Below are positions 2,700 to 57,571 of a stretch of 64,000 nucleotides of DNA, one piece after another. The first letter of the stretch is position 1, and each line of letters begins with the position of its first letter. The notes beneath the pieces were generated by a model that saw only the letters and a list, made by a program, of their open reading frames with translations, searched no databases and was not told the DNA's origin. Origin of the DNA: Octopus vulgaris (lineage: Eukaryota); contig OX597831.1 in the NCBI GenBank assembly GCA_951406725.2, forward strand, positions 19,158,001-19,222,000, written 5' to 3'. A program made the translations under genes and the position numbers.

Positions 2700-2806
<107 letters not shown>

Positions 2807-2827: not shown

Positions 2828-2905
<78 letters not shown>

Positions 2906-4967: not shown

Positions 4968-5116
4968 TAAAGCCTATGGCGATATTCGCGCAATGACTAA
5001 GGAAAATAGTGTAATAAAGGGGCATATAAACCCTCGACAGAAACAAAGAAGGCTTATATGACCCTTTATTAGACTATTGTCCTTAGTCATTGTACCTTAA
5101 TCGCCATAAGCTTTAA
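4968..5116. repeat. Imperfect hairpin/inverted repeat (MITE-like; copy at about 28550-28700)
   Basis: CAATGACTAAGGAAAATAGTGTAATAAAGGG pairs with CCCTTTATTAGACTATTGTCCTTAGTCATTG; outer AAAGCCTATGGCGAT pairs with ATCGCCATAAGCTTT. Confidence 0.75.
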
Positions 5117-5663
5117 GCTTATATGAAAATAATATATATATATATATATTCATATATATACATATATACGTGTGTGTATACGTGTATATATATATATATA
5201 TATATATAAGTTTTCAATTGATATTTTCGTTCCCGATATCTCATCGTTCGACCATTTGTAATGAAAATAAACCCAAATCTGTAGCTATTATAGATTATAA
5301 TCCTGAACGTCAAACAGTCAGGATAATATTAAGTAAGTTCTCCTGTTTTCCTATCACACGGGATTACATTAATTTGTTGATTATTTTCATTGGAATGTTG
5401 ATAAGATTTTCTGTCATCTAATTTTGTTAATAACCGGAAATGTATATCTTCATCATTGCTTACGATTACCACTAGAAAAAAATATTAAACATCAAAATAT
5501 GGCCAGGTTTAATTCATTTAATTTGAGTTTTTCATGTTCGCGGAGTTTTATGGAGGAAAACCCTGTAGACTTCACAAAGTCATCGACCTTTTTTACCAAA
5601 TTCTGCCAGGCATTATTCAACAGAGAGCATATTTCAATGAAATCTTTCAATAAAATCTCAGTT

Positions 5664-6562: not shown

Positions 6563-7250
6563 ATACGATATAGTGTATATTTAATTCCATGAGGAATCTA
6601 CTTATAGGATTCTAGAACAGCTAGGTTCTATAAACACAAAATTAGGGATAAAATTCAACAGGAACGAAATGAAAAATGAAAAACTTTTTACCGTCTAGTT
6701 TCCTGGACCAATTGGTCTCTGATTTTAGTTTAGCGAGTCAAGGAACTCGCTAGGTGCAATCTTCTTCAGCAGGACCACCTAGGGTTAAACGTATACACAC
6801 TGGGCGATGACAACTACTTGTCCCGTATTTATACGTCCTAACCTCTTCAAAATCTACTGCGCTGCCGCAGTCCTTCGCTAGCAATAAAAAAAAGGCAACT
6901 TTTAAAACCGAAAATTATGCCGGCGAAGGTCTGCGGCTGCGCAGTAGATTTTGAAGAGGTTAGGATGTATAAATACGGGACAAGTAGTTTTCATCGCTCA
7001 GTGTGTATACATTTAACCCTAGGTGGTCCTGCTGAAGAAGATTGCACCTAGTGAGTTCCTTGACTCGCTAAACTAAAATCAGAAACCAATTGGTCCAGGA
7101 AACTAGATCGTAAAATGTTTTTCATTTTTCATTTCGTTCCTGTTGAATTTTATCCCTAATTTTGTGGTTATAGAACCTAGCTGTTCTTTCTAGCGTATTG
7201 ACTTCCTATAAGTAGATTCCTCATGTGTTTAAATATACACTATATCGTAT
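6563..7250. mobile_element. Non-coding fold-back element with about 320-bp inverted arms, each carrying a hammerhead motif (probably PLE-derived)
   Basis: Arms 6563-6883 and 6918-7250 are reverse complements with few mismatches; 34-nt spacer; TA-rich flanks. Confidence 0.85.
7027..7100 (+). ncRNA. Minimal type I hammerhead ribozyme motif
   Basis: TCCTG-CTGAAGA-(A)GATT...AATC(A)-GAAA-CCAATTGG-TC-CAGGA. Stem II closes on an A-A mismatch; the minus-strand mirror copy (about 6701-6774) has GAAA changed to GAGA. Confidence 0.7.
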
Positions 7251-8168
7251 ATATCTTTATATATTTATATCTGTGTATGTATGTATTTATGTATGTATAT
7301 ATGTATGTATATAGCACTCGTAAATAGTTATGAAAATTCAAAAATAGTTATCATTTCGCTACTTACGGAAAAGAACAAAGAAAATAAATATGGAATATTT
7401 TATTACGTAGTTTAGCGTTGGACTCAATAACTGCTCAATCTCTGACGATATAACGCTGTAATTTCATTTATAATAGTGATGAAACATGTGTCGGAACGGT
7501 GCAACAGCCTAATAAATTGGATTTATGGCGTTCTTTTGTAATATTTCCGACGTATTTGTTGATTTAGAGAAAATTGTCTACATCATTACGTACGTTTGAT
7601 GAATTGTTTAAAAGTTTAAAGTAACTATCTTAATTTTGCCTGTAAATTTCTAAGCTTCAAAAGGGTCGAGCGGCTATCAGGTATTGGAGGTTGTTGGGGT
7701 GTCAGCCTTTCAAACCTCATAGACGTCTGCTGGCAACATATTTAACTCGGGTAAGAGTAAACATACAATATTTCTCTGCTCTTTTCACAGCTATATTTCG
7801 TTGGGAATTTAATTGTCTGAAAATCACTAATACGTTCGGGGATTCCAAAGTTATCCTGAATATCATCTGAGATAGCGGTCTAATGACTGCATGTTAGTTA
7901 AAGCAAGAGCTTTCAGTCTGTCCGCACTTACTTTACTTTCCTATTTCACACAGAGAACGGTTAAAGTGATAGAAAGTCTCCTGGGAAGCGTAGAGGCGGC
8001 GAAATGTGTAGATGCGGGGGATGTACAACTTTCACCATAAGATATATCGTGACGGATGTGTATCTGCTTTTCTCAGGGGAAATAGGTCACAAACATACTT
8101 TCCCTTGACACAAGAACATTGAACACACACACACACACACACGCACACACAAATACACATATATATAT

Positions 8169-8212
<44 letters not shown>

Positions 8213-8624
8213 TCCGGCTACACCAGCAATGTAACTACACACGTACTATTAGCGATTTCTTTTCCTTATTTGGACTTTTCTACTCCTTTCCGACAAAGTG
8301 CTCAGCACGAAATGTCAACTCCTTATTTTTACCAAGTGTTAATTATACACATTCCTTAAACCCGTTCTCTTGCTCTCCCTTAGCTGTATTCGTTTATTTG
8401 AACAGTGTTTCTTTATGTGAATTCCTGTGTTGAAGCATATATCGTTGTGTCTGGAGAGAGTCATTCAGTTTTAATGTTTTATTAACACACTCGCCGCTTC
8501 CATTTCCACTCATTTACTTCTTTATTTTCTAAAATTTTCCTTGCTTCTTGCAACCTCTTCTTGAAGTAACTGAGTGTATTAAGTACTAAGACATTAATAG
8601 AGAATGTCTCACGCCACCCGAGGC

Positions 8625-8674
<50 letters not shown>

Positions 8675-8756
8675 AAATATTAGGGAATAAATCCAAACTT
8701 ACAGGGAAAAATAAGATTGAGGATTGAATCCAATTTTATAGTAAAATATTATATTA

Positions 8757-8967
8757 TATTAAATTAGAGATAAAACCACTATCAGGCAAATCATACAATG
8801 AAATACTTAAGCCAATACATAAGATTATGAAACGATCGTAGTGTTATACTAATTATCCTTTTTTAATAATTTTGATATATATTTAAAATAATATTAATTA
8901 ATTAATCTTATGCATTGGCTTAAGTTTTTCATTGTATGATTTGCCTAATAGTGGTTTTATCTTTAAT

Positions 8968-9200: not shown

Positions 9201-12200
9201 AAGCCGACTACGGCTGCTGTAATGGTACGATTATAATTGTAACGGCAATGATGGCCGTCTCCCCACGAGCCAATCAAAGCTAAAAAATGATAACATTATC
9301 GTAGCACCAAAATGTTTTTGGAAACTAAAAGGAAAATTAAATCAGTATACCAAATCGCTTGTCCTATGGTTAATCTGGAAGCGCGTCCCCCAGGGAAGAG
9401 CCAGCCTGGGATCGAAAAGTCATCAACTGGCACAAACTCTTCTACCGAATACGGACATGGATGGTCACTTGAACGGGAAATCCCCCAACTCGAGCCCTCC
9501 AAGTTCACCACCACAACCACCACAGAAAGAAAAATGTAAGCGGAACAAATGGACCCGAGAAGAGTATAAAGAAGTAATATACGCTTATTACTATGCATTA
9601 GGTAGGCCATCTCAAGAGAGACACACCGCGAACTCTTACAGTATATGGAGAACACGGAATCAAGACAGTAGGCCCTATTTGGACGAGAACAAATTAGCAA
9701 ATGTGAGGAGGGATATCCTTAGAAATAACAGACTCACAGACAGTGAAATAAGCGCGATCAAGCACGCAACGGAAAATGACATAAATATAAGACACAAAGG
9801 AAATGAAGAATCAGATGAACAGTATAGCCCGCCACGAGGCTTAATTGAAAGACTGCCATCTGACCAAAGTACGCAAAGGCCTGAAGATACAAGAAATTCT
9901 ATTGTACCTGTTAAAGATAGCCAGGAAAATGAAAAAACAACAGTAACTGAAGATCTCGCATTTTCTGAAGAACACAGAGAGTCTATGGCAGAAATGAGGC
10001 AGAAAATCCTGAATAAGCTTGAAGTTGTAAGACATACAAGCATGAATGATAGAGAACCACTTCATAAACTTTCAAATACAAACCAAAATAAAAAACAAAT
10101 CCAAATTGGCAACTATGTAACAAATGAAATAATACGAGAATTAAAACCTGATTTTACTGAGTTAAATGAAATTATTTACGCTTCTGCTAGGGCAATTTAA
10201 ACCAGCTGTATGCCCCCGAAAAAACAAAGAAAACAAAACCTGGGAAGAAATCAAACCTGGAGAAGTAAAATTGAAAAAGAGATTGAATTTATGAGAGGGG
10301 AAATATCAATATTAAATGAACTAATATGTGGAAATGATATAAGATCCAGAACAGGAAGAAAGATGAAGAGAAAATTTGGATCATCACCAAGAGAAGAACT
10401 GATATCAATAAAAGAAACGCTGAAACAAAAAGTCCAAGCAAAAGCCCAAAGAATACGAAGATTTGAGAAGAGAAACAAGTTTTACAAGCAAAATAAGCTG
10501 TTCACATCCAATGCCAAACAATTCTACAGAGAAATAGGGAAGGAGAAAGTAAACGTTAAAAAACCCCCTCCCATGGAATAAGTTCAAAACTTTTGGAAAA
10601 GGATTTGGAGTGACAAGAAGACGTACAACATAAATGCAGACTGGATTATACAAACTGAAGGATCCTACCAAATTTTACAACAACAAGCATGGGAAGACAT
10701 CACAATAGCAGACCTAAGAAAGGCACTCACGAAGGCCCATAATTGGAAATCCCCCGGTAAAGATAGGGTGCCGAATTTCTGGTTCGCATCGCTCCCATGC
10801 GCACACGGTAAGCTAGTTCAGGTGCTCAATGGAATTATGAGAGACCCAAAGAAAACACCTGAATGGTTAGCAAGTGGCATTACTTACCTACTCCCAAAGA
10901 ATAACGAAACCAACCTTCCAAAAAACTATCGGCCTATAACCTGTCTATCCAACACGTATAAAATCTAACATCTATCCTGGCGGAGAAAACATATGCATTC
11001 ATGGAGAAGAACGATATTTTCCCCATTGAACAAAAAGGGTGCCGCCGAGGCTCTTACGGATGCAAAGATCAACTGCTAATCAATCGTATGATCCTTGAGA
11101 ACTGTCACAACAAGCGCAGAAATCTCAGCACCGCATGGATTGACTATAAAAAGGCCTTCGACAGTATACCGCATCCATGGATCTTGAGATCGCTGGACAT
11201 CTTCAAAATTTCCCCTGTGATTTCAAACTTCCTGAAGCACAATATGTCGTTGTGGAATACGAATCTCCAATTATACCACTCTAATGGAGTACTTGCCGCA
11301 GAAAATATAAACATCAACTGTGGAATTATTCAAGGTGACTCACTTTCACCTTTAATATTCTGCATAGCCCTAATACCCCTTACAAGTGAATTAAACAGAA
11401 CAAGGGTATGGGTATAAAATTGCCAATAAAAAAATAAGCCATCTATTTTATATGGATGACTTAAAACTTTATGGTAAAGACAATAATGAACTTGAAGGCC
11501 TATTGCGCACCGTGAAAGCATTCAGCGATGACATCGGGATGGAGTTTAGACTTGAGAAGTGTGCCAAGGCCACTTTCCAGAAAGGGAAAGTGAAGACCAC
11601 AAATTCAGTCGTGTTAGATGTTGACACAGTCATAAGAGAGCTTGAGCAAGAACAAACATACAAATATTTAGGGATAAATGAAGGCTCTGGTATTCAGCAC
11701 GCAAGCATGAAAGAGAAAATCAGGAAGGAATGTTATAAGAGAGTTCGTGCAGTCCTGAAATCTGAACTAAATGCACGTAACAAGGTGTTAGCTATAAATT
11801 CCTTAGCAGTTCCAGTTGTTACTTATAGCTACAATGTGTTGAACTGGAATATGAGTGAAGTAAAGAATATAGATAGGAAAATACGGAAGCTGCTGAGTTG
11901 TAATAGGATGCACCACCCAAAGGCAGACGTAGATCGCCTTTACCTTCCCAGAGACCAAGGAGGTCGAGGCCTGATCCAATTTGAACTAGCTTACAAAACA
12001 ACCACAATTGGACTGGCCAAATATCTCGAAATATCGAATGACTGGCTGCTAAAGCTCGTGGAAAATCACGAGAGACGAAAGAAGCTTCATTCTATCATAA
12101 AGGAAAGCAAAAAATATGCTATTGATCTCGTGCAGGACACCCAAACTGAACACCCCGAGGGAAGTACGGCAACTATTGTTTCAAAGAAGGTGAAAATGAT

Positions 12201-13171
12201 GGCAACGAAAAAAGCGCACGAGCAATTGGCTGATAGGTGGGAGGAGAAACCTCTGCACGGCAAATATGTGACCCGCAGCAAACAAGCTGATGTTGACCAG
12301 AAGCAAACCCATCAGTGGCTACGGAGCTCAGGGCTAAAAGCAGAGAACGAAGGTTTCATCCTGGCTGCTCAAGATCAAAGCCTATAAACTCGGAACTACC
12401 AGGCCAATGTGATGAAAAATGGAGCAGACCCAAAATGCCGATTCTGCAACGACATGATTGAAACAGTGGACCACCTAATCTCTGGATGTAAAGTCTTAGC
12501 ACCAGTGGAGTATAAATTAAGACATGACAGAGTTGGCCAATATCTCCACTGGCTAATAAGTCGGCATTACAATATCAAAACTGCCGACAAGTAGTATAAT
12601 CACCACCCTGAGGCTGTAACTGAAGGAGAAAATGTAACCATTCTGTGGGACTTTCCAGTGCATACAGACCGAACCATCAAGGCCAATAAACCAGATATTG
12701 TTGTGAAAGACCAAAACAATAAAGTTTGCTTATTGATCGACATGCGCATCCCCTGTGATCATAATATCTCAGCGAAAGAGTTTGACAAGCTCAGAAAATA
12801 TAAAGACCTACTCATTGAAATTGAGAAAATGTGGCATCTCAAGGCGGTTACAATACCAGTGATCGTAGGAGCACTAGGAATGATCAAGAAGGGAACCGAA
12901 AATTATATGAGAATGATCCCTGGCTTACCATCCCTGCAAGAAGTGCAAAAGATTGTCTTAACTGGTACATCACACGTATTGAGAAGAGCATTGTCGATGT
13001 GAGAACTGTTGCTGGTCATGTATTTTAATTTAACTTTAAAAAAAAAAATGAACGAACTACTGAGTTTGGTTTAATGGCCTACCAATGTATACAATGAGTT
13101 TCTTTGCCCTAGGAGTTGGGAAGACACTCGGAAAGAAATGATAGCAAATTTGAAAGAAGAAGAAAAAAAAG
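9201..13171 (+). mobile_element. R4/Dong-clade non-LTR retrotransposon (RT + RLE endonuclease), near full length, inactivated
   Basis: KWTREE N-terminus; RT motifs YRPITCL, WIDYKKAFDS, QGDSLSP, YMDD; CRFC..ETVDHLISGC knuckle; RHD and PDIVV..D RLE motifs. (TAA)n on both sides is the known Dong target. Confidence 0.9.
9457..13002 (+). pseudogene. Disrupted Dong/R4 single ORF
   Basis: Collinear ORF pieces 9457-10200, 10210-10581, 10768-10968, 11001-11417, 11452-12387, 12409-12594, 12658-13002 separated by stops and frameshifts. Confidence 0.9.
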
Positions 13172-17274: not shown

Positions 17275-17400
17275 AAGGACTGAAATTTGGCGGGGGAGGA
17301 TGCCAGTCGATTAGCTCGACCTCAGTACGTAACTGGTACTTAATTTATCGACCCCGAAATTATGAAAGGCAAAGTTGACCCCAGTGGACATTTGAACTCA
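17275..17400 (-). mobile_element. SINE family 2 fragment
   Basis: AACTGGTACTTAATTTATCGACCCCGAAA..GAAAGGCAAAGTTGACC shared with 43.3-43.7 kb and 46.2-47.1 kb. Confidence 0.75.
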
Positions 17401-18038
17401 AAAAACATGATTAAATGTTATACATTCAGCGTTTTTGCATTGTTTATAATTCTACCCTCTAATTTCCTCTAATATCAACTCTATTCCGGGCTGAAACTCT
17501 CTTTTTCTGTGGGTGAATCATAAGTAGCAAGATCAAATGCAATACTCGGGTATTTCAAAAATATAAACTGTCAAACACGTAGTTTAGTAACAATAGGCAA
17601 CACCGCAAGAAAGAACATTATTTCAGCCAGATATATTATCCAGGCATTGGACTTTTGAAGTTGTGGAAACAAACCTAGTGAAATTTCGTTTCAATATAAA
17701 TAAAAAATACGTGCTATGATTCACATTTAAGTGAGTGCTGCCTAACACATTCTGTGGGGTCATTTCACTTATTTGAAATGGGTATGTAAACAACCAAAAT
17801 ACCGTTCGAGTGGCCCAATACACTTTGTTCAAACTAGTTTAGTTTAAACCATACTAATATAATGTCTCAACAATTGTAAACGGATAAAAAGTTATAGTCA
17901 GTTTCATCGACTGAATACTATTTAATTATATCGATCATATTGAAAACAATACAAGCTTTACAACAAAAAACATCTGCCATAAAATTGCTCGATTAATCCT
18001 ACCCGTAACACCAAGAGTAGCAGTACGATCGTATATAC

Positions 18039-18129: not shown

Positions 18130-19322
18130 CTAAAAATTTGAAAATGTATTTGAAATTCTGAAATTATTTTTACGACAGTGAATTTATGCTGCAAAACAAA
18201 ACCATAATTTCCGTTTATGTACAATTCCTATTACTAAGAGAAGAGACATATGGCGGTTGTTGGCCTGATTTTGCGAAGTTATGCGTATGAGGTTAACGTT
18301 TCAAAATGTTCCGTGTTGGGTAGAACTTTTTTCAGGGTATTTCACAATGGTCCAATCTGCAAATTGTTTCTCATAATTTTTTAAATAATTCTCAAACTAA
18401 TAAGTGTGTGATTTAAGGTTGAATTAGCTGTTTTTTTTAGTAAATCCAACAAACACCTGATACCTTTCTCATTTCTTTCTCATATGTATTGATATGTTTT
18501 TAATATTTTGCCCCCAAAACTCATTTTAGCGAATGATGGTGCAGTGATTAATTGTCGGGATTTAAGCAAAGCAAAAATAAAAAAATAAAAGTAATTGAAA
18601 TTTCTGATCAGCCATCCTGCCCCAAGAGGGGCGGTTAGAAAAAGCAAAGTTACTATTCTATGAAAACAAATTATTTTTCACAAAACATTTTTAGAACACC
18701 CTATCACCCTAATGAAAGTCTTTGCACATATGTATACACACATACTGAGAAGCACGCAATGAGCTTGAGCTATATACGTTTATGGAGAATGAGAATGTAG
18801 AAAAAATGTATTGAGAGGGGGAATGTTTACCATGAAAATAGCCAAAAATTAATGTAATAGAGAAAGAGAGATTACTTCTCTGTTGCAGATTTTGAAATTT
18901 TAAACTTAAAATTTTTCAAATTTGATACATTGATGTAGCTTTACTCGTTGAATTCGAATTTGTGATTAATTTATTCCTTAATTGTTTAGTAAAATGTTGT
19001 AAGTTTTAACATTTTGAATATCTATTTGAATATCTATTTGTACAGGATAGGTGTGATAAAATGAAAGTAAAATTTAGAATACGAAGCATTCCAACGACAC
19101 AATACATATGCGCAGAGACAGCGTAATCAAGAGTGTGGTGTATAAGTGAAAGACAGATAGATAGAAGGAGGAGAACACAGGGAATTAGAGAAAGACTGCA
19201 AGAGAGTTGTCGATCTAGAAGTTGAGTTATGTTTCGTATATTGTGACGCAGATTTTGCGAATTAAATTCGATTTATGCCTAGCTGCATATATTCGCATTT
19301 ATATAGTGTATATATACAGGGT

Positions 19323-20441
19323 CCTATACCTTCAGAACGTCCGACGACGGAGTGTTCCTCCACACCAGGGCTGATGGTGGATTGTTCAATCTTGCGCGCC
19401 TCAGAGCTAAGACCAAAGTCCGTCAGGTGCTGATCAGAGAGATCCTCTTTGCTGACGATGCCGCCCTAACATCACACAACCAGCCGGGTCTCCAGAGGCT
19501 GGTTAGCTCCCTAGCGGATGCCTGCCAAGAGTTAGGCCTTACCATCGGCCTGAAAAAGACAGAGATCATGGGCCAGGACGTCGGAGGGGTCCCCAGCATC
19601 ACTGTCGGCGACCACAGCTTGCAGGTGGTGAAAGATTTCACTTACCTGGGATCGACGATCTCCGGCAGCCTGTCCCTCGAGCCGGAGCTGAACAGACGGA
19701 TTGGGAAGGCTGCTGCTGCCATGGCTAAGCTCTCCAGGAGAGTGTGGGAAAACAACATGCTCACAATAACCACCAAGATCGCAGTGTACCGAGCCTGCGT
19801 GCTGAGCACCCTACTCTACGGCAGCGAGAGCTGGACAACATACACCCGGCAAGAATGCCGCCTCAACGGCTTCCACATGCGGTGTCTTCGACGGATCCTT
19901 GGCATCTCCTGGAAGGACCGAGTACCAAACGGAGTCATCCTAGAACAGACTAATATGCCAAGCATGCATGCCCTCCTCGTGCAGAGACGACTGCGCTGGC
20001 TCGGACACGTCTGCCGCATGCAGGACGGTCGCATGCCTAAAGACATCCTGTACAGCGAACTCACCACGGGATCCCGACCCAAGGGACGTCCACAGCTACG
20101 ATACAGGGATGTGTGCAAGCGCGACCTGAGGACTGCCAACATCTGTGTGGACACGTGGGAGGTAACAGCTGCTGACCGCTCTGCCTGGCGTCGGACAGTG
20201 AGGAAAGGCGTTTCCATAGCTGAGGAAAGGAGAGAACAGCTGTGGTCGGACAGGCGGGACAGGAGGAGGACAACTGCAGCAACACCCCACACGTACCCAT
20301 CGATGTTCGTGTGCAGCAACTGTACCAGGGACTGCCACTCTAGAATTGGACTGTTCAGTCACAGCAGACGCTGCTCATCATCAAAGTAGGCCCCACCCTT
20401 GGCGCGACCCATTGTCTATCAAGACAGACGGGGAAAAGAAG
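19323..20441 (+). mobile_element. 5'-truncated RTE (BovB-like) LINE, young
   Basis: 11-bp TSD ATATACAGGGT (19312-19322 and 20442-20452); AAG-rich tail; much more GC-rich than its flanks. Confidence 0.92.
19352..20389 (+). CDS. C-terminal part of RTE reverse transcriptase ORF (open frame)
   Basis: LFNLARLRAKTK, LFADD, FTYLGS, LLYGSESW, LRWLGHV and terminal CxxC..SRIGLFSH..C motifs. Confidence 0.9.
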   Translation: MFLHTRADGGLFNLARLRAKTKVRQVLIREILFADDAALTSHNQPGLQRLVSSLADACQELGLTIGLKKTEIMGQDVGGVPSITVGDHSLQVVKDFTYLGSTISGSLSLEPELNRRIGKAAAAMAKLSRRVWENNMLTITTKIAVYRACVLSTLLYGSESWTTYTRQECRLNGFHMRCLRRILGISWKDRVPNGVILEQTNMPSMHALLVQRRLRWLGHVCRMQDGRMPKDILYSELTTGSRPKGRPQLRYRDVCKRDLRTANICVDTWEVTAADRSAWRRTVRKGVSIAEERREQLWSDRRDRRRTTAATPHTYPSMFVCSNCTRDCHSRIGLFSHSRRCSSSK

Positions 20442-22693: not shown

Positions 22694-23739
22694 ATTCTCA
22701 GCGGATACTCCAAATAGGGTTTGTGTGTCAATCTGAGGACAGTGCAGAGGATTCGTAATGAAATGGATGTGTCTAATTGGGAATACGAAGGAACGGCAGA
22801 TCGGAAAACTGACTATGAACGTTCTCATAAGAAAAGAACTCCTGAATTTATTGGTAAGATCCGGGCAATGATTAACAACGATCCCTCCATGTCAATTAGG
22901 TCCATCGGTTAGGGACATGGGATTGATTGTCTGAGTTTCTTATAAGGCAGGTAGTGTATGAAGATATTCCATATTCCTTATACAAGATTCGAAAGGGCCA
23001 TAAAGGGCGAGAGGGCCATCAAGGGCGAAAGGGTCATGAAACAGAAGAAACAAAACGCGCTACGAAGCTTTGGAACAAACTCAAGTGTCCCCTCCAACAA
23101 AGCATGCTTTGGAATGTCTCCAACGAGAAAAATTTCTACCAGGACCAGATGGTGAGCATACAAAACAACCGTTGCCTTACAATGTTCCTAAAACATGAAC
23201 CGATTGTGATAAAAATTAAACTTTTAGTCAATATTATGGCGTTTCGAGTGATCACTAGTGATGGCGACGTTATGCCTCCATTCATCTTCCCACGTGGTCT
23301 CAGATTCAACACGGATGCCTTCATCAAGAGCTTGAAGGTAATAGCAGAACCCAGTTATGTCTGTCGAACAATTTCTGCGATCACATCGCTCCTAAAATCT
23401 AGCCACCTAACGTTCCAGACCGCAACCCATTTGATCATCATATGTGGGGTACAGTTGAGCGAGAAACCAATAAAACTCCTTGTAACCAAAGATAAACCAA
23501 AGATAAAGGCAAAGATTATTGACCGACTTAATCAAAGAGTGTTTCCAGAAATGTTGCAGGAGTTTCCGAAGTCATCTGGAAGCTGTGACTGAAATTAATG
23601 GCGATTTCATTGAATGAATTTACTCTTTAGTATTTCAATATATTTTTTTGTAATGTTGGTAAATATATCTGTTAAAATGAGATGTCAGTGATATTTTCGT
23701 TTTTGCGTAATTTAGGGACAAGTTGATCACCACACCCTG
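22692..23739 (+). mobile_element. maT-like transposon remnant (left end lost)
   Basis: RTVQRIR, SNEKNF and ITSDGDVMPPFIFPRGLR fragments; right TIR ...CACCACACCCTG-TA. Confidence 0.8.
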
Positions 23740-24096
23740 TATGCATGTGTGTGCGCGGGGTGTGTTTATGCGTGTGTTAATAATTCTAAGTTCATTTGCG
23801 TATAAATATTTCAGTTTGTCCTATAAAGTTCATCCAATGAAAGTGTCTCTGTCTCTCTGACATGTACAATTCACTCTAACTGAGAAGATTTTTACTACAA
23901 AAAAGCTACAAAATTATATCAATGATTTCTGATCAAGAAAAGCAGTTTTGAGGAACATACTTTCAAAACATTGCATAATATATTTATATAGTCAGAAAGA
24001 TCAAGTTCAAGTCAAACAATTATAAATTGTTATAATCAAAGGAAAAGCTCACATCATTTCCCCCTTTCTCGCTCTCTCTCTCTCTCTCTCTCTATA

Positions 24097-24142
<46 letters not shown>

Positions 24143-24986
24143 CCATAGCAGGCGTTGGAGTGTATATTGATTTAGTGTCGTTTACTTCAACAAACTTCGA
24201 ATACCACCGCACTACCATAGTAGTATAAGGGCCTACCTTGATAAGATGGTTTAGACAAAGTATATCAACTACATTTATAGGACCTCAGGTCACTAATCTC
24301 TTGGTTAGTATCGCCTGCTGGCAATATTTTCCCGTTGATAAATATAAGTATGCAAAGTTTCTATGTTCGTACAGCTTTCCCGCGTACGGAATTTACATTG
24401 TCTATAATTTAGCAAACACTTTCCATGCTCACAACATTTATTTTTTTAAAAAAATATTATTTTCGGCTTTAAACGAGCAACCGTCGATGAATTAAGAATA
24501 GTCGTTGAAAGGTAATACGCAGAAATGCATAACAATGTTTTCTTTCTTTTTTTTCTTTTTTTTTTGCATTTCAGTTGCTTCAGGTTAGCAACTGGAGGAG
24601 CACCAGAGAGCAGATTGATTTGAAAAAAATACCTTTAAAAAATTCAAATTGTGTCTGTAGATTACTTTTTGAAAATAGAATGCATTTCAATAAAAACAAT
24701 GCTGATCCATCAGACATTCTATGCGGGTATGTGGACGGAAATCTTTAGAAAGTATTCTGTGTATATTAATATATGTATATCACCGAACCTGGAGCTTAAC
24801 TATAGTCTATTAGTCTATGCATATTTACTCATCATTACCTGATACCTTTGGGTCTTATTGATATTACATCTCATAAACCCCCTATATGTATATATATATA
24901 TATACATATATATATAAAGATATATAGACAGAGATAGATAGATAGATAGATAAGTATACGTGTATGTATATATATATGTTTATGAA

Positions 24987-25037
<51 letters not shown>

Positions 25038-25265
25038 TTATTTATATATATATATATATGTATATATGTATATGTACACATATGCATATATATTCTTATA
25101 TGTATATTCAGATAGATGTGTATGTATATACATGAACATATATATTTATATGTATATATGCATATATACGTATATATATATATGTGTGTGTGTGTGTATG
25201 TGTGTGCGCGTGTGTCCCTGCGTTTGTTTTTTTTATGCGTGCGCGCTCTTATGTGTGTGTGTATT

Positions 25266-25308
<43 letters not shown>

Positions 25309-25436
25309 AAACCAGGACTAAAATCAAGTGACAGATTGGATATGTTCATTTGTTACTGAAACTGTCTCCATATTCCATGCAACAAATGAAAAAGAGTGAA
25401 GAAAAATTCAGATTTAATCCTCGTATGGCTACTTAC

Positions 25437-25473
25437 CAACAGTGAGAAGCAAAAGAAATATAAAATATTTCAT
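25437..25473 (-). CDS. Exon 1 of secreted Cys-rich protein gene A (signal peptide MKYFIFLLLLTV)
   Basis: ATG at 25473; phase-1 GTAAGT donor; splices in frame to 18129. Confidence 0.65.
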
Positions 25474-25499
25474 CTTGATTTTTCGCTTTGAATTCAACT

Positions 25500-25546
25500 C
25501 CTCTTCATATTGTGACAACGTACACGTATCTTTTACTTATATATAA
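25500..25546 (-). promoter_or_regulatory. Putative core promoter of gene A (TATATAA box and CACAATATGAA leader)
   Basis: TATA-like box about 65-70 nt before the ATG; CACAATATGAA also precedes the paralogous exon at 40166. Confidence 0.45.
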
Positions 25547-25995
25547 TTAAGAATTGTGTAACACCTGTTTAAACCGAACAACACGACATATAAATTTCAT
25601 ATATGACATGTGGTAGTACTTGAATTGTTATTTTTATGAATAGTAGTTGGTACGTTATCAGCTGATGTATATGCTATGTCTGTTTTATTGATACATATTT
25701 TTGCAAATTGAAATAAACCATCCTTTTTCTTCATTTTGTGTTTAAGATCCTAGCGAATGACTGAACATTTTACACTCACCGTCGCACAATGTAAAATAAT
25801 TTTACGTTTAAAATGAACATGTGTGTATACGTACATAGTGAAATACGTCAGTATTACATACATATATATATATATGATAGGGGTATAGATTCGTAAGCGT
25901 ACGACAGCGGTTTCAATACGTGGACAGATCACTGTGTTTTGAGTAAAACACTTCATTTCATGGCTTGAAAAGATCAAGGATGGCTCGTTTCTTAT

Positions 25996-26350
25996 AGGAA
26001 CAGGCGTGGCTCTGTGCTAAGAAGTAGGCTTTCGAACCGCGTGTTTTCAGGTCTAGCATCTCTGCGAGAATGGATTTGGTAGACGGAAACTGAATGAAAC
26101 CCGTAGTATATATGTATGTGGGTATGTGTGTGTGAGCATGCGTCTGTGTGTGCGCGTGTATCTTTGTGTCCCCTTTCCCGGCGACCACTTCACAAACGGT
26201 GTTGGCGTATATAAGTTCCCATAACATAAGTACGAGTTTTAAGGAAAACAGAATAATCACTGTGGTCGATTCGGTCGACTTAAAATTCTTCTAGACGGAA
26301 CCTGCAGCACGACCGCATTCTAGTGACTGGAAAAAGTAAAAGATAAAAAA
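25996..26350 (+). mobile_element. tRNA-derived SINE, family 1 (duplicate of 2339-2692)
   Basis: Part of the duplicated segment. Confidence 0.8.
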
Positions 26351-26382
26351 TGAAAGCACACACATATATATATATATATATG

Positions 26383-26433
<51 letters not shown>

Positions 26434-26454
26434 GTATATATATATATGTATATA

Positions 26455-26487
<33 letters not shown>

Positions 26488-28441
26488 GGTTAGCTGAGTT
26501 AGAGGTTAAAATAACCGTCTAAAAGATAGAAGAATCCATTAAACTACCGGTTTATTACCTATGTTTATCCGTGGGCATACATATGCAAGCATATTATACT
26601 AATAAATCATAAGTAACAACAAGGATAAAAATGAGTTTATAAAGAATCAAAATTTTAAGAAAACAGAAAATGGAGAAATATTGATGAACAAAAATTGAAT
26701 TACATCAATTATTATTTGTTAATTCAATCCAAATAGACTGCATCCCATTTAACAGCTGTTTATGCTTCCAACGTTCAATAGGTTTTCGACGGACACAAGG
26801 TGGAGACACAATAAGGTTGAAAATAATCATAATAATTTTAATAATTATGTTCACAGTACTAATTAATAGTTTTTATCATAATATATTGCTCATCGACTAA
26901 CTGTAAATCTTTATTTAGTACTAGGTGGTTAAGTCCTTCCACCTGAAAATTGCGTTTGTGTTTGTATGTGTGTGTGTATATCTGCGTATATGTATATCTA
27001 CGTACACACGTGTGTATAATGCATTTATGTATGTATATACACCGTAATAGAAATATAATTTGAAAGAGCCATTTAATTATATAGAAATCGTAAATTTAAA
27101 TTTAATAGTATTATGCGTATCAATTTTTTCTCTGCTGATTTACGATCAAGTCGCTAACACGGTACAGGCAGACATTTTTGAGATTTTATTAATAGTTCTT
27201 CTACAATGTATATTTTCTTTTCATTACTGTGTTCTCTCTTTTCCGCCGCACTTAGTTCTATAGATATTTGTGTGGTATTCGTGTAGATTGATTGGCAAGT
27301 TGGACATCAATTGAAAATATTAAGCAATTTTTATTTTCCTACTTTATTTTGATAATTGTTTAAAACGTTCCACAATATATATTATCGTTCCACCTAGGTT
27401 CTTTTATCAAAATAAAAAAAATACTCCATTAGGAAAGAAAGAACTTGTACAATGTGCGAGACAACCAGATGTCATATAGATTTCTATTGCGCCTTAAATA
27501 TTTGCATAGAATCATTTTATATCATTTATGCGTAAATTAAAATCATTGTAATACTGGAATCTTACAGCTGCAATGATGAATATTTAACATCCAAATTTGA
27601 TTTAAGATATGCCAAAATGTATGCTCTTTAGAATCAATTAAGATCGACCATTATTAAATAAAAAGTCATTAATGGTTTCATTCCAAATTCAATTTATATG
27701 AAATCTTAATTATTACTTTTAAAGTAACATGCATTAGGGCTTTGCATATTTGGTTTATATAATTAAGACGATGTTGAAATATTTAATCGTACCTCCCCGT
27801 TTTATTTTAAAGACTCTTCTTCTTCTTCTTCTTCTTCTTCTTCTTCTTCTTCTTCTTCTTCTTCTTCTTCTTCTTCTTCTTCTTCTTCTTCTTCTTCTTC
27901 TTCTTCTTCTTCTTCTTCTTCTTCTTCTATCCCTTCCAAACCTGATTTTGTTCACTGCTGTTTGAGATTCCGGCATTCAAAAGCTACGAAGTACTTTTGG
28001 TCTCATGAATCTTCGTAGTGTTAAATGGAAGGCAAACACCCATGCTCATTCATTCGCAGATTGCACATCTACTCACTCTCTGACCCCCAAAAGCATCGCT
28101 ACATCTTGGCAGCCAGTAGTGGACATTGGCACAAGTATATATTCACACCACGCTCCGCTCCAGTGCTGAAACTAGCTTCGCATGTACCAGCGCACTTGGC
28201 AGATATAATATCATTGGAATCAAAGAAACATTACCTTTGAATTTCGAAGTATTAATATAAACATCGAAATTCAAAAAATAGCAGCAGAAATGTTGATCAT
28301 TCAGGAGCAAAAGTCAATACCAAAGTGATCATGTCATTCGACGAACGGCTGTGTCTCATATCGTGGAGATTTGATAGATGAAGATATTTTACCTGTCACA
28401 GGTCGAATTGTACCGTGCACTGCTTCGCATAACATGATGTA

Positions 28442-28472
<31 letters not shown>

Positions 28473-28760
28473 GCCTTTGGCGCGAATGTTTTTTATACGG
28501 TGCCGTTTTTGCAATATAAATAATAATAATAGTATTTTTACATAAACGTAAAGCCTATGGCGATATTCGCGCAATGACTAAGGAAAATAGTGTAATAAAG
28601 GGGCATATAAACCCTCGACAGAAACAAAGAAGGCTTATATGACCCTTTATTAGACTATTGTCCTTAGTCATTGTACCTTAATCGCCATAAGCTTTAAGCT
28701 TATATGAAAATAATATATATATATATATTCATATATATACATATATACGTGTGTGTATAC

Positions 28761-28795
<35 letters not shown>

Positions 28796-29444
28796 TTTTC
28801 AATTGATATTTTCGTTCCCGATATCTCATCGTTCGACCATTTGTAATGAAAATAAACCCAAATCTGTAGCTATTATAGATTATAATCCTGAACGTCAAAC
28901 AGTCAGGATAATATTAAGTAAGTTCTCCTGTTTTCCTATCACACGGGATTACATTAATTTGTTGATTATTTTCATTGGAATGTTTTATGTAATTCTATTG
29001 GGAACTTTGAAATTCCGTCTATGAAGTATCTTTAAATGGCGTGCACGTTTTCATGCTTAGCAAAGAGTGACATCAAAGACGATTTTCCAGTTTATTGTCA
29101 AAATATAAAAATAATACGCATGGAAATACTTACAGCAATATATAGATTCCCGGGATTCTGCCATTGTATTTGTCGCCCAATTTCCAGAGAATTCGTGAAT
29201 AAAAGATAACCTGGAAAACAGTTTGTCAGAAAGTGAAGAAAAGTGAATTTTGCTTTAATTGTTGGAGACTTTCTTCAGTTATGAGAAAGAATTTCTGTTC
29301 AAACTTCCATATCTCATCATTCATTTTGGCTACGAAAATCCCCAGGCGAATACCTTCAACTTGTAACAATTTGTTTTCGCAGAGTATAACAAGCTGTATA
29401 GGAATGTCGGAAGGCAGTATTATTTATATGCATGTATGAATGTT

Positions 29445-30805: not shown

Positions 30806-30808
<3 letters not shown>
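30289..30808. mobile_element. Non-autonomous PLE terminal-repeat remnant between (TA)n tracts, with a degenerate minus-strand hammerhead (about 30471-30585)
   Basis: Similar to 48588-48960 (AAGAAAATGGAG leader; ACAGCTGTTTC.GCC.TGTAGATAAG); 30730-30808 is an inverted match to about 48410-48490. Confidence 0.7.
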
Positions 30809-30856
<48 letters not shown>

Positions 30857-30909
30857 TTATGAATAAATGAAAGAATGAAGTTGAATGACAAATTAACAAA
30901 TTTCCTTTA

Positions 30910-30989
30910 TTTTCGACATATGTTTCGAAGGCTGCATATTCCTAATTGTGAAGGAATAAGGAGTACATTATGCCGCTTTCTCATCAGGA
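30910..30989 (-). ncRNA. Mirror hammerhead on the minus strand (intact core, shortened stem I)
   Basis: Reverse complement of 31062-31141; the 5' arm of stem I is cut by the inversion breakpoint. Confidence 0.7.
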
Positions 30990-31058
30990 GCTATGCGCTC
31001 CGTGAGAGCAGTCATCTAAAAGCTTTTGTGAATCTTGATATTGACATAAATTCCTTGT

Positions 31059-31141
31059 TTTTCCTGATGAGAAAGCGGCATAATGTACTCCTTATTCCTT
31101 CACAATTAGGAATATGCAGCCTTCGAAACATATGTCGAAAA
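31059..31141 (+). ncRNA. Minimal type I hammerhead ribozyme, intact core
   Basis: TTTTC-CTGATGA-GAAAGCGGCATA...TATGCAGCCTTC-GAAA-CATATG-TC-GAAAA; GUC cleavage triplet. Confidence 0.85.
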
Positions 31142-31344
31142 TAAAGGAAATTTGTTAATTTGTCGTTCAACTCCATTCTTTCATTTATTCATAAATTTTA
31201 TAAAAATACACAAAAATTTCCACACGAAAACACGTAGTATCTGCCCTAGGCACGTAACTTCAACCGTGTTATTTCTTATGTGAATTTACTACCCAGGTAT
31301 CGGTTAAACGAATTATCCATAAAAAGATATTTCCTTTTTCTACT

Positions 31345-31404
<60 letters not shown>

Positions 31405-32593
31405 CATACATACACACATTCATACATACATATATACATACATATATATATATATATATGTATATATGTATATATATTTACACTATCTTCTACGTTGCTT
31501 GGACCTAGTCTATATTGATATTAACATGTATAGTAAGAATAGTAAAAATGTACGTGTTGGAGATCTATGTCCCTATATAAGTATGTATGTTGTTATATTC
31601 TAGTAATAATGCATGTAAAAGTGAATAGGTGTGCTTACATAAATAGATACGTATATATTTTCATTTTTGTTTACATTCATTTCTTCACTCTTTAAAAATA
31701 GTAAGTATATATGAAACACGCGTATATCTATGGAGAAATAGATGTATGCATGCTCATATATTTTATATTTTACTTTAATATATTGTTTCCTTTCCTGGTT
31801 TTGTATTTGTAAGAGACTATGTAAGAGGTGTATATGTGTGATAAATATAAATAGATACTTGTGTGTATCACACTACATTGTATGTATACACACTACTCTG
31901 CATATAAGCAAAAAAATATTAAGAATATATGAGGGAGTGCAGGAAAGTTCCCGGTTGTGTCTATAAGAAAATACAGGAGGATCAGTAATGAAGCTGTTCT
32001 TTTTTGTTTAGTTATTTTATGCTTGCGGGACACATCGTTGTATAACTACTTCAAAATAACAAACATATATACGTGAAGCGGCATAATATATATTTATATA
32101 CTTGAATATGTGTGCGCAATAGTTGTGACTACTCATGCGCTGTTCTGTAAATAGGAGATAAACACGGTTATTCAAGAATTCATATCATCCCAGCTTCAAT
32201 GGGATTTAGATAAAATATTTAATTTTGCAAGATTTAATACATTAGTACTTACATTAGTATTTCATTATTCATTAGATTTATGTTTTATAAAATGGTCTCA
32301 TTGTAAGATACATTAATAAATAAGGGATATGGGTTTGAGTACATTGCAGGGTTGTTGACAATTATTGCCGCTTTGTAAGGGTAATTAATTTACCTAATAT
32401 TTCTGTTGTTCTAACTACAGCTCTGCTTTCGAAATAACATGTCATCTAATTTGTATCGTTCCATACACATTTGGAAACATATAAAAACAACTGTTAATTA
32501 GTTTGTTTATAAATGTGAGTTTGTGTATATATAGAGAAATATACGAGTTTGTGCGTGTGTTTATACACGCACACATATATATTTATATGCATA

Positions 32594-43294: not shown

Positions 43295-43680
43295 TTGGGG
43301 ACAAGGCTAAAACTTTCGGGATTGGTGCTATGTCCATTAGATCGAACCTAGTCCTAAAATGGTCCTTATTTCATCGACCACCGAAAGAATGAAAAGAAAA
43401 GTCGACCTCGGGGAAATTTGAACTCAGAACGTAAAGACAGGCGAAATACCTATTTCTTTACTACCCACAAGGGGCTAAACACAGAAAGGACAAACAAGGA
43501 CAAACAAACGGATTAAATCGATTACATCGACCCCAGTGCGTAACTGGTACTTAATTTATCGACCTCGAAAGTATGAAAGTCAAAGTCGACCTCGGAGCAA
43601 TTTGAACTCAGAACGTAACGGCAGACGAAATACTGCTAAGCATTTCGCCCGGCCTGCTAACGTTTCTGCCAGCTCGCCGT
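43295..43680 (-). mobile_element. SINE family 2, dimeric copy
   Basis: Reverse complement of the units at 46203-47105. Confidence 0.85.
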
Positions 43681-46202: not shown

Positions 46203-47105
46203 GGCGAGCTGGCAGGAACATTATCACGCCGAGCGAAATGCTTAGCGGTATTTCGTCTGCCGCTAAGGTCTGAGTTCAAATTCCGCCGAGGTCAACTTTG
46301 CCTTTCATCCTTTCGGGGTCGACTAAATAAGTACCAGTTAGACACTGGGGTAGATATAATCGACTTAATCCGTTTGTCTGTCCTTGTTTGTCCTCTCTGT
46401 GTTTAGCCCCTTGTAGGTAGTAAAGAAATAGGTATTTCGTCTGCCGATACGTTCTGAGTTCAAATTACTCCGAGGTCGACTTTGCCTTTCATACTTTCGG
46501 GGTCAATAAATTAGTACCAGTTACGCACTGGTGGCCGATGTAATCGACTTAATCCGTTTGTCTGTCCTTGTTTGTCCTCTCTTAGTTTAGCCCCTTGTGG
46601 GTAATAAAGAAATAGGTATTTCATCTGCCGCTACATTCTGAGTTAAAATTCCGCCGAGGTCGAATGTGCCTTTCATCGTTTCAGGGTCGATTAAATAAGT
46701 ACCAGTTAAGCACTGGGGTCGATGCATTCGACTTAATCCCTTTGTCTGTTCTTGTTTGTCCTCTCTATGTTTGGCCCCTTGTGTGCAATAAAGAACTAAG
46801 AAACGTAGCGTGCCGGGCTAAATGCTTAGTGGTATTTTATCTGCCGCTACGTTCCGAGTTCAAATTCCGCTGAGGTCGACTTTGCCTTTCATCCCTACGG
46901 GAGCGATTAAATAAGTACCAGTTACGCATTGGGGTTGATGTAATCGACTTAATTCCATTGTCGGTCCTTGTTTGTCCCCTCTATGTTTGTCCCCTTGTGG
47001 GCAATAAAGAAATAAGAAACGTTAGCACGTTGGAAAGAATGCCTAGCAGCTTTTCGCCAGTCGTTACGTTCTGAGTTCAAATTCCATTGATGTTAACTTT
47101 GGTTT
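46203..47105 (+). mobile_element. Head-to-tail array of about 4.5 SINE family 2 units (184 to about 220 bp)
   Basis: GGTATTTCGTCTGCCG..TGAGTTCAAATTCCGCCGAGGTCGACTTTGCCTTTCATC recurs at about 46247, 46431, 46615, 46831 and 47050. Confidence 0.88.
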
Positions 47106-48409: not shown

Positions 48410-49950
48410 AATTGAGATAGGGGTTGTAAATGCAACCATCCATGGGATAACATATATCCAATATACTGCTAGTGAGGTAACCAACAAAGTTAATACATAA
48501 ATGTTGATGATTGCGATGCAATCAATTCATTTACTGTATTATATGGGCAAAGGTAAAATGATTTACCACAAATTACTAATACAAGATAAGAAAATGGAGA
48601 AATACATCTAAATCAAATATCAATTCCCAGATAATACTCAATCACATACTTTATTAAACCACCACATAAGAGACTGTAGGGTTAAATATAAAAAGCAGAA
48701 CAAATCAGTGTACATAAAGGAATGTACATAAAAAAGTGTATATAAACGAGGAATGTTGTATAATAAGTAGAATATATATAAAAGAGAAAATAAATATAAG
48801 TAAATATAAATATAAGTATAGATTACATCTTACAGCTGTTTCGGCCATGTAGATAAGTATGTCTCATTTTACCAATATTAACCCTTTATGGTTGGTCAAT
48901 ATATAGATATAAATGAGACATTTACAAAATTATCATAAGGCCTCTTCGGAGATTATGTAATATAAATCAGTCTACATATATACCCACATGGGTGTGGGTG
49001 CATGCCCATAATACAACATATACATATACATATGAGTGAATATACTCATACTCTTATACATATAAAAATATACATATACATAATGATATAAATAAATAAT
49101 ATAAATTAGTAAACATATATATGTGTTCCACATTCAATGTCTCAGTTTTTCGACTTAAGAATAACAACTTGAGGGGTAATCCACATAGTGATGACGATAC
49201 ACTATGGCTAATAATACCATATGCAATGCAGATTAAAACGGATATAGTCAGAACTATACATAAAGTAATATATAGACTATTTACTAAGGGTAAGTATAAA
49301 TTTAGCCAAATAATTAACAATAGAATTATTAGAATAGGATATAGTAACACGAATAATCTAGCCACCATCATCTCCTCCTTCAACAACAAGAAATTGGATT
49401 GCTTCTATAATGATAGAAAGATAAATATGGGTAGTAGTGAAAATAAGTGCAATAATATCAACAGAAATAGGGCTACGCAGATTTCTACCAGGGTTAAATC
49501 TCCTCAATCGGTTAATGGCTGCAATTGCAGAAGCAAGAATCAATGTGTGTTTGGTAATAAATGCCTGAGGAGAGAGGTGGTTTACCAATGCACTGTAAAT
49601 ACAAAATAGAATAGCAGGGTGTATATTGATAACTAAAAATAGTATAAAACAACGGCTAAACTATCATAGATATACTTTAAAAATAAAAATAGGATGAACT
49701 CTACGGGGTTAAGTACGTATATCTGGGAACTCAAGAGTAAGAACATAGATTTAAAATTAGATTGGGAAATACTAACATCTGCACCTGTATACAATAGTAG
49801 AAATAAAAATGCTCTTTATGTATCAATGGAATTTTCTTCATCATCAAAGCCGGCCAACCCATTATTAACAGCATTAATGAGCGAAATTTTTTTTGCCTTC
49901 ACAAATTGGCGTACACTTTCTCTAGATTTAAATAACATCTAATTCTTCTA
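48407..49950 (+). mobile_element. 5'-truncated Penelope-like element (Naiad-like GIY-YIG end) preceded by an inverted terminal repeat
   Basis: WLIIPY, IRIGYSNTNNLATIISSFNNK, CNCRSKNQCVFGNKCL..VVYQCTV, STGLSTYIWELK, CSLC and CLH motifs with stops/frameshifts; starts at (TA)n. Confidence 0.85.
48828..48952 (-). ncRNA. Hammerhead motif in the inverted PLE terminal repeat (CCGA core variant)
   Basis: Minus strand: TCT-CCGAAGA-GGCC..(about 90-nt insert containing TGTCTCATTT/AAATGAGACA)..GGCC-GAAA-CAGCTG-TA-AGA. Confidence 0.7.
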
Positions 49951-56649: not shown

Positions 56650-56861
56650 TTTTTTGAAATAGAAAGATGAATAATCTTGTAGCAGATTATTCAAAAGTTT
56701 AACCGATACCTCGGTAGCAAAAATCACAGCAGAAGACAGCACGGTTGGAGGTACAACCATATGGTGTTGCAACCGTGCGTTGGTGCGGATAATTGAAATT
56801 AAAATATTATTGGTGAATTGAAGAAATGGAGCTGAACGAAGATTGAACAGAAATCGTTTTA

Positions 56862-56950
56862 TTTCATTCTACACGTGTTTCGAAAGGCACAATTTACCAA
56901 AATCCGATTGAATAATGAGACCATATTGTGTCTTTCTCTTCAGGAAGAAA
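56862..56950 (-). ncRNA. Minimal type I hammerhead in the PLE 3' terminal repeat, intact core
   Basis: Minus strand: TTC-CTGAAGA-GAAAGACACAAT...ATTGTGCCTTTC-GAAA-CACGTG-TA-GAA; same sense as the ORF at 57572-59410. Confidence 0.85.
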
Positions 56951-57571
56951 TAGGAAATCCGTTTGAAAAAACAAAAACAGAACAGAGGCGGAGCAAAACA
57001 AATCGAACTAGGCTCCTAAGAGCCCATGGCAAAACTGTTTATCAGTGTATGTTGAGAACCGGTGGTTGAAGATTTTAACGGGTCAGGCAGCGGTCATTCC
57101 TGCGGGTGAGTGTGTGTAGATGTTCTTTGTGACCGAGAATAAAGTCCTGACTATTTAAGGAATATTGGATGTTTTATAAGGAGCGAGAAAAAATCTACTT
57201 AGAGACATGTGTGTGTTTACTGTTCTATATATGTGTGTGCTGGCGCAGGTTGGCGAGACCTCCGTCAAGGGGTAGAAAACATTTTTTGTGTACGTGTGTG
57301 CGTTTGATCGTTCGGCTGTCAGTGGTTAAGCCGCTCTACACAATGGCTACTGCAGTAAGAACCGTTGGGTGGCAGAAAAAAATATATTATGTTTTATGTG
57401 TGCGTGTGTTCGTCTGAACCTGCCTTGTCAAGGAAACCCCCGTCGTCAAAAAACAAAGCCCCGTTTATCTTACAGGAGTAATTCCCCTTGCAGTGGTTAA
57501 TCGTAATTATCTTAAAGGCTATTTCAGAATTTGTTACCAAGGGCTATGGGTGCATGTATTATTTATAAACG

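What the first reader, a model, noticed from the sequence alone, without database searches (positions are those of the whole stretch)
30853..31198. Tiny fold-back element made almost entirely of two mirror-image hammerhead ribozymes
Seen: 137-bp inverted arms beside (TA)n, each with an intact type I core (CUGAUGA / GAAA / CAUAUG / UC), so both strands encode a hammerhead; no ORF. Known: Penelope-like elements carry minimal hammerheads with palindromic stem III and often insert with inverted ends; described animal retrozymes are mostly direct tandem repeats. Inference: this is either a minimal abortive PLE insertion or a non-autonomous hairpin-type retrozyme whose transcript folds into a rod that masks its own ribozyme, as in ambisense viroid-like RNAs.
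Basis: partly seen in the sequence, partly recalled or inferred. Interest (0 to 1): 0.8.

Follow-up and report, generated by a model that had tools for sequence, protein, structure and literature searches.

The report
Fold-back stub of a Penelope retroelement
This short hairpin is two truncated, back-to-back tail ends of a Penelope-like jumping gene inserted in a TA repeat, with only one complete hammerhead motif (cleavage untested), so it is ordinary transposon debris; but its relatives almost always pair one short-ended with one long-ended arm, which likely records how such elements prime their copying on both DNA strands.

Summary
The 137-nt inverted arms are real, but the insertion is larger (30853-31347, between two (TA)n tracts) and only the + strand has a complete hammerhead; the - strand copy lacks its stem I 5' strand. 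Both arms are 5'-truncated 3' ends of a 3.5-kb Penelope-like element (RT + C-terminal GIY-YIG, Hydra-like). The junction is unique in the genome (1 hit, against 801 for the ribozyme 3' half), and 53 sampled fold-backs have 53 different breakpoints, so it is not a self-propagating retrozyme. This is the published 'inverted pLTR plus tail' pattern, and this scan noted it before in two other genomes. What is less ordinary is in the family. The tail is about 145 nt (published: 30-40). Inverted pairs join one short-ended (A) and one long-ended (B) arm in 53 of 53 sampled cases, with 1 clear exception in a second set of 11. 5' ends pile up just after a TATA/Inr-like site. The linker zinc knuckle tied to (TA)n targeting is absent, yet (TA)n is still the target. 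Likely mechanism: two-site priming from both target strands.

The parts
30808..30853 (.). (TA)n target tract, left side
   Evidence: TA-type repeat follows the 3' end in 81 of 83 sampled relatives
30853..30989 (-). Short arm: 5'-truncated copy of the element's 3' end, from -74 to site A (about +62 from the predicted cleavage site)
30902..30989 (-). Incomplete hammerhead: core 30987-30981, stems II and III, C17 at 30915; only 2 nt of the stem I 5' strand
30989..30990 (.). Head-to-head junction of the two truncated 5' ends; unique in the genome
   Evidence: 1 match at up to 1 mismatch
30990..31347 (+).
31051..31149 (+). Complete type I hammerhead motif of the PLE kind: stem I 31051-31063/31137-31149, CUGAUGA 31064-31070, stem II 31071-31082/31113-31124, GAAA 31125-31128, palindromic stem III, predicted cut after 31136
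31199..31347 (+). Tail of about 149 nt between the two fixed 3' ends (site A and site B), present on one arm only
31348..31477 (.). (TA)n/(TACA)n target tract, right side

Best explanation
The feature is a one-off insertion of two 5'-truncated 3' ends of an endonuclease-bearing Penelope-like retroelement, set head-to-head in a (TA)n tract and likely made by priming reverse transcription from both cut target strands at two different fixed sites on the element's RNA. [quoted passage not shown] Inferred: the nuclease cuts both strands of (TA)n; one 3' OH primes at A and the other at B, probably helped by the AUAU/UAUA letters that follow both sites in the element; the two cDNAs grow towards the RNA 5' end, stop early and are joined. 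Many short arms, including this copy's long arm (starting at -146), likely ran off the 5' end of an mRNA starting near -153. The hammerhead is a passenger from the parent's pLTR. It would need a dimer partner or protein help to cut, and in a read-through transcript of this copy it is predicted to be buried in a 137-bp duplex. My odds: about 0.95 for the identity, about 0.6 for the two-site, two-strand mechanism.
For: Parent element: upstream sequence of longer copies encodes a GIY-YIG-type domain and an RT with DKT, RIRW, FDVPMG and GLYRDD motifs; 681 homologues at E<=0.001. The motifs match the published Hydra proteins seen in the supplement of PMC8557442 (compared by eye). Partial tandem with the ORF starting after site B (L061-L063). 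Unique junction; 801 exact copies of the hammerhead 3' half, control 0. In the first 100 of those 801 hits (84 loci; 83 after dropping L108, a segmental duplicate of L107): 53 inverted pairs, all A+B; 29 with no partner seen (16 B, 13 A); 1 unclassifiable. Sister family: 7 of 7 classifiable pairs A+B among 30 loci, at homologous positions. In 31 of 53 pairs the A arm reaches more than 10 nt further 5' than the B arm, and in 18 of 53 the B arm starts at or after site A, so neither arm can simply be a copy of the other. Paired arms differ by a median 2.0% against 5.1% to other loci (33 pairs; 28 below the median of others; 8 share rare variants). 28 of 136 arm 5' ends fall in -155..-135, against 5 and 4 in the flanking 21-nt windows (7 of 10000 null runs reach this); TATAAAG at -181 and TCATT with its A at -153 lie there in L062. 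Published: inverted 5'-truncated copy plus one-sided tail (PMC8557442, PMC3846280); two internal RT start sites, both strands cut and extended, hammerhead cleavage not needed in vitro (PMC11167929).
Against: The pairing rule has exceptions. Among loci picked by the nuclease region there were 10 A+B, one clear B+B (L059), one possible A+A (L042, cut at +50 by foreign sequence) and 4 unclassifiable pairs (read by eye). The main sample was seeded on an exact 27-mer, so it favours arms reaching -16 and less-mutated copies, and covers only contigs C1 and part of C2. Arm similarity could also come from gene conversion within the palindrome, and it cannot tell one RNA molecule from two of the same source. 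The start site at -153 rests on a pile-up and a motif, with no RNA 5'-end data; a strong RT stop would look the same, and the sister family's nearest upstream TATAAA is at -308. AT-rich letters at both sites make microhomology hard to tell from chance. None of the long copies I read had an unbroken full ORF. PMC11167929 found priming at RNA sites not homologous to the cut DNA and no difference in start site between strands.
Confidence: 0.8

Rival explanations
1. Same parent, other mechanism: the inverted arm arises by self-priming or fold-back copying of a single cDNA or antisense template (as proposed in PMC3846280), and site A is a nuclease resolution point, not a priming site.
For: In this copy the short arm is nested in the long arm. 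Paired arms are more alike than other copies. Short palindromes sit at some junctions (L012, L022). PMC8557442 ascribes the tail to endonuclease-mediated resolution.
Against: In 31 of 53 pairs neither arm contains the other, and in 18 of 53 they barely overlap or do not overlap. A-ended arms also occur with no partner seen (13 of 83).
Confidence: 0.14
2. A non-autonomous, self-propagating hairpin retrozyme or ambisense viroid-like RNA with a ribozyme in each polarity.
For: A near-perfect rod is predicted (z -29.7). Short fold-backs are common: 45 of 53 pairs total 700 nt or less, and 17 of 53 have two complete hammerheads.
Against: Unique junction; all 53 breakpoint pairs differ; the - strand motif lacks stem I; no same-strand repeats in 83 loci; none of the 53 partner arms begins within 5 nt of the cleavage site; ends are set by sites A and B, not by the cut.
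Confidence: 0.02
3. A post-insertion rearrangement or assembly artefact: one ordinary truncated copy was duplicated in inverted form by repair or mis-assembly at the (TA)n.
For: The copy sits between microsatellites, and no contig laid on it bridged this exact junction (short contigs, so uninformative).
Against: The arms differ at 2 positions. The short arm ends at the same site A as dozens of independent loci and a sister family. Other head-to-head joints appear in an independent run's contigs (table 5).
Confidence: 0.04

Closest known systems
Inverted pLTR plus 'tail' insertions of EN+ Penelope-like elements (PMC8557442; PMC3846280)
   Same: Head-to-head 5'-truncated copies, tail on one end only, hammerhead in the pLTR, microsatellite target, partial tandems, Asn-rich insert between RT and EN (also described in PMC3846280).
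   Different: Tail about 145 nt instead of 30-40; this copy keeps no coding sequence. I found no count of short-end/long-end pairing in the passages read.
Hydra clade of C-terminal EN+ PLEs (PMC8557442, section 11 and supplement)
   Same: DKT motif, RW motif, GLYRDD, C-terminal GIY-YIG-type domain without CCHH, CxxC and CxH around the conserved E and N, (TA)n target, hammerhead.
   Different: Linker CxCX5C absent; RWK reads RWL; unit about 3.5 kb (published: generally under 3 kb). The published cephalopod family Hydra-1_oBim has a different hammerhead sequence.
PAc (Poseidon of the green anole), two internal RT start sites (PMC11167929)
   Same: Two fixed start sites downstream of the hammerhead define the tail; AT-rich target; an AC-rich stretch follows site A here.
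   Different: The sites are about 145 nt apart and both lie upstream of the AUG (about +260), not inside the ORF; both are followed by ATAT/TATA letters that could pair with the target.
L1 twin priming (described in review PMC9148063, citing Ostertag and Kazazian 2001)
   Same: Both target strands prime on the element RNA, giving an inverted 5' segment.
   Different: In L1 one primer uses the poly(A) tail and the other a variable internal site; here both sites are fixed and the arms overlap in 35 of 53 pairs.
Metazoan non-LTR retrozymes (PMC7229834; bioRxiv 10.64898/2026.07.22.740005)
   Same: Type I hammerhead with weak palindromic stem III, small non-coding unit, PLE ancestry.
   Different: No direct tandem repeats, no fixed monomer, ends not at the cleavage site.

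Membership tests
EN+ Penelope-like element insertion | Parent ORF with RT and GIY-YIG endonuclease | tested here: met
   by motifs and homologues; Pfam and PDB sequences gave no informative match
EN+ Penelope-like element insertion | pLTR from partial tandems, with adjacent inverted 5'-truncated copy | tested here: met
   L062; 53 of 83 sampled loci are inverted pairs
EN+ Penelope-like element insertion | One-sided tail | tested here: met
   present, but about 145 nt rather than 30-40
EN+ Penelope-like element insertion | Hammerhead motif in the pLTR | tested here: met
   3 stem II pairs change on both sides among 4 sequences
Hydra clade | DKT and RWK motifs; divergent RT4 | tested here: inconclusive
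   DKT present; RIRWL instead of RWK
Hydra clade | EN lacks CCHH; CxxC and CxH flank the conserved E and N | tested here: met
Hydra clade | Linker zinc knuckle CxCX5C | tested here: not met
   absent from the open linker-EN frames of this family and of the sister family; a CxCx4-6C pattern is present in 79 of the 81 homologues that reach the EN, of 120 held
Hydra clade | (TA)n insertion preference | tested here: met
   81 of 83
Hydra clade | Placement in the clade by RT phylogeny with published members | not tested
   published sequences were seen only as supplement excerpts; no tree was built
Non-LTR retrozyme | Direct tandem repeats of a 150-450-nt unit, each with a hammerhead | tested here: not met
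   0 of 83 loci (motif search within the 3-8 kb held per locus)
Non-LTR retrozyme | Circular RNA monomers | not testable with these tools
   only assembled contigs were offered
Ambisense viroid-like RNA | A complete ribozyme in each polarity | tested here: not met
Active hammerhead ribozyme | Self-cleavage as monomer or dimer | not testable with these tools
   needs a cleavage assay

The most novel reading that the evidence does not exclude
This Hydra-like family is a natural read-out of Penelope integration. One ribonucleoprotein primes the two target strands at two dedicated, non-interchangeable RNA sites 145 nt apart (fixed-site twin priming), mostly on the 5' leader of the mRNA. It finds (TA)n through primer-template pairing at AUAU letters instead of through the linker zinc knuckle, which it has lost.
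Probability: 0.35. Interest if true: 0.6.

Novelty: new variant of a known kind. Interest (0 to 1): 0.33.

Why it matters
The hairpin itself is ordinary PLE debris and should not be taken for a viroid-like replicon. The family is useful because PMC8557442 names the origin of the inverted/tail structures and of the microsatellite bias as open questions. A long tail makes the two ends easy to tell apart, so hundreds of young insertions can be scored. The near-strict A+B pairing, the 5'-end pile-up and the missing zinc knuckle each give a sharp prediction for the in vitro system of PMC11167929.

Tried and rejected
Rfam scan: no hammerhead model matched at E<=1. Pfam on the RT and linker-EN pieces: 2 DUF matches below cut-off, nothing informative. 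PDB sequence search with the alignment: 0 hits. Sequencing runs: no RNA holder listed on record; only assembled contigs. Contigs of guessed-RNA runs cover the pLTR and scattered ORF pieces but cannot show starts, strand, level, circles or cleavage, so they are not used as evidence. No contig bridged this junction (uninformative). Rejected: recurring breakpoint; cDNAs starting from hammerhead-cleaved RNA (no partner arm begins at +1); retrozyme tandem arrays. The TATA/Inr print-out is valid for L062 only: for L026 the script picked an earlier CTCATT and for L036 an unrelated locus position. The first TA-flank score was distorted by alignments running into the repeat and was replaced. Literature: seven full-text searches; 'Penelope + pseudo-LTR + twin priming' gave 0 papers. 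Subscription papers, Repbase and Dfam were not searchable, so the family or the pairing rule may be described there.

Full report
Observation. The inverted arms are as described: 30853-30989 and 31062-31198, 137 nt, 72 nt apart, with two mismatches. The + strand holds a complete type I hammerhead of the PLE kind: stem I with 11 of 13 pairs, CUGAUGA at 31064, stem II with 10 of 12 pairs, GAAA at 31125, a one-pair stem III capped by palindromic AUAU, and C17 at 31136. The - strand copy has the core but only two contiguous stem I pairs, because the 5' strand of stem I lies in the spacer. Rfam does not detect either copy. The motif is conserved by covariation: among four natural sequences (this copy, an older subfamily, a diverged copy and a sister family), three stem II pairs change on both sides and loop III stays self-pairing (CATATG, CACGTG, CATGTG). 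Four related sequences are weak statistics.

Extent and parent. The insertion runs from the (TA)n ending at 30853 to the (TA)n starting at 31348. Searching it in G000 (2.8 Gb) gave 3361 first-look candidates, of which 40 were scored; the best share the long arm to the same last base. Longer copies extend upstream into a GIY-YIG-type domain and an RT. L061-L063 show the near-whole unit, about 3.5 kb from site B to site B, with the AUG about 50 nt after site B. The RT has 681 homologues. Its DKT, RW, FDVxMG and GLYRDD motifs and a nuclease without CCHH match the description and supplement excerpts of the Hydra clade. The linker knuckle CxCX5C is absent from this family and its sister, but a matching pattern is present in 79 of the 81 homologues that reach the nuclease. 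I therefore file it as an EN+ PLE that works like Hydra, not as a tested Hydra member. None of the long copies read had an unbroken full ORF.

Not a self-propagating unit. The junction occurs once in the genome, while the hammerhead 3' half occurs 801 times exactly. I took the first 100 of those hits (all of contig C1, the start of C2), which collapse to 84 loci, and dropped L108 as a segmental duplicate of L107. Of 83 loci, 53 are head-to-head pairs with 53 different breakpoint pairs, 29 show no partner and 1 is unclassifiable. None has two same-strand hammerheads, no partner arm begins at the cleavage site, and 81 of 83 end in a TA-type repeat.

The pairing rule. Every arm ends at site A (about +45 to +95 from the predicted cut) or site B (about +210). 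All 53 pairs are A+B; independent choice would give at most half (binomial p about 1e-16, computed on 54 before removing the duplicate). In loci picked by the nuclease region I read 10 A+B, one B+B (L059), one possible A+A (L042) and four unclassifiable pairs. A sister family with 48-64% protein identity, which has a copy in this window, uses homologous sites (+65 to +72 and +215), and 7 of its 7 classifiable pairs among 30 loci are A+B. The dozen fold-backs are also A+B but were selected for likeness to the window and are not counted. In 31 of 53 pairs the A arm reaches further 5' than the B arm, and in 18 the B arm starts at or after site A, which simple fold-back copying cannot give. Overlapping arms are closer to each other (median 2.0%) than to other loci (5.1%) in 33 pairs, which fits one template source but also gene conversion.

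5' ends. 28 of 136 arms start between -155 and -135, against 5 and 4 in the flanking windows; 7 of 10000 runs of a smooth truncation model reach that peak. In L062 a TATAAAG at -181 and a TCATT with its A at -153 sit at this edge; reading them as TATA box and initiator rests on my recall of core-promoter consensus and on a similar pair described in PMC3846280. The window's long arm starts at -146, so it likely copies almost the whole mRNA leader and lacks those upstream motifs. An RT stop would explain the peak equally well.

Mechanism. Inferred: the nuclease cuts both strands of (TA)n, each 3' end primes at one of the two sites (both are followed by ATAT/TATA letters in the element), the cDNAs stop early and are joined head-to-head. 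Overlap of the arms in 35 of 53 pairs needs either strand displacement on one RNA or two RNAs. The hammerhead is inherited from the pLTR. In a read-through transcript it is predicted to be fully buried (stem pair probabilities 0.0, rod 0.999), whereas a transcript starting at 30990 forms inner stem I with probability about 0.47. By the double-hammerhead model (PMC4209133) the - strand copy could at most serve as substrate in trans.

Comparison. The architecture is published: an inverted 5'-truncated copy and a one-sided 30-40-bp tail (PMC8557442, passages, section 11 and supplement excerpts read; PMC3846280, passages read), two internal RT start sites and both-strand extension (PMC11167929, parts 1-2 of 4 read, covering the main text), weak dimer-type hammerheads (PMC4209133, passages), retrozymes as tandem repeats (PMC7229834, passages; bioRxiv 10.64898/2026.07.22.740005, first of five parts; its supplements could not be seen), and L1 twin priming (PMC9148063, passage; the 2001 paper itself not read). 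Two earlier notes of this scan reached the same reading in other genomes; I saw them after forming mine and did not test them. What I did not find in the passages read is a tail this long, a count of the A+B rule, or a (TA)n-targeting Hydra-like family without the knuckle; my searches are listed under Tried and rejected and do not cover Repbase, Dfam or subscription journals.

Verdict. A real but ordinary product of a known process, with a family that offers a clean test of how that process works. Interest 0.33.

Noticed in passing
window 56650-61226: Large head-to-head insertion of a sister Hydra-like family: 1817-nt arms at 99% identity, open 615-aa and 541-aa frames (RT end to nuclease), hammerhead variant on the - strand (core near 56944, CACGTG stem III, predicted cut at 56870), B end at the (AT)n near 56650; the right arm is cut at 61226 by about 200 nt of other sequence.
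   Followed up: partly
window 49100-49606 (+): Fragment of a third Hydra-like element that keeps the linker knuckle (CNCRSKNQC).
   Followed up: no
run X7, record 25, laid on window 31037-31138: One fold-back contig from a guessed-RNA run of organism B has six A>G changes (31067-31108, two in the CUGAUGA core) that are absent or nearly absent from X16 and X17; it may be A-to-I editing of a hairpin transcript, but there is no matched DNA.
   Followed up: no
window 1-5399 and 23610-28984: Direct segmental duplication, 96% identical over about 5.4 kb.
   Followed up: no
window 9223-12999 (+) and 19307-20386 (+): Broken non-LTR retrotransposon frames, RT-like by eye; families not determined.
   Followed up: no
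window 46247-47022, 43329-43680, 17305-17403: Tandem and dispersed copies of a 184-216-nt repeat, probably a SINE (label recalled, not tested).
   Followed up: no
L061:2957-4704 and 7181-8864: The element's 3' part plus flank is duplicated about 4.2 kb apart; not a clean element tandem.
   Followed up: partly
sampled arms, positions -56 to -42: [quoted passage not shown]
   Followed up: no
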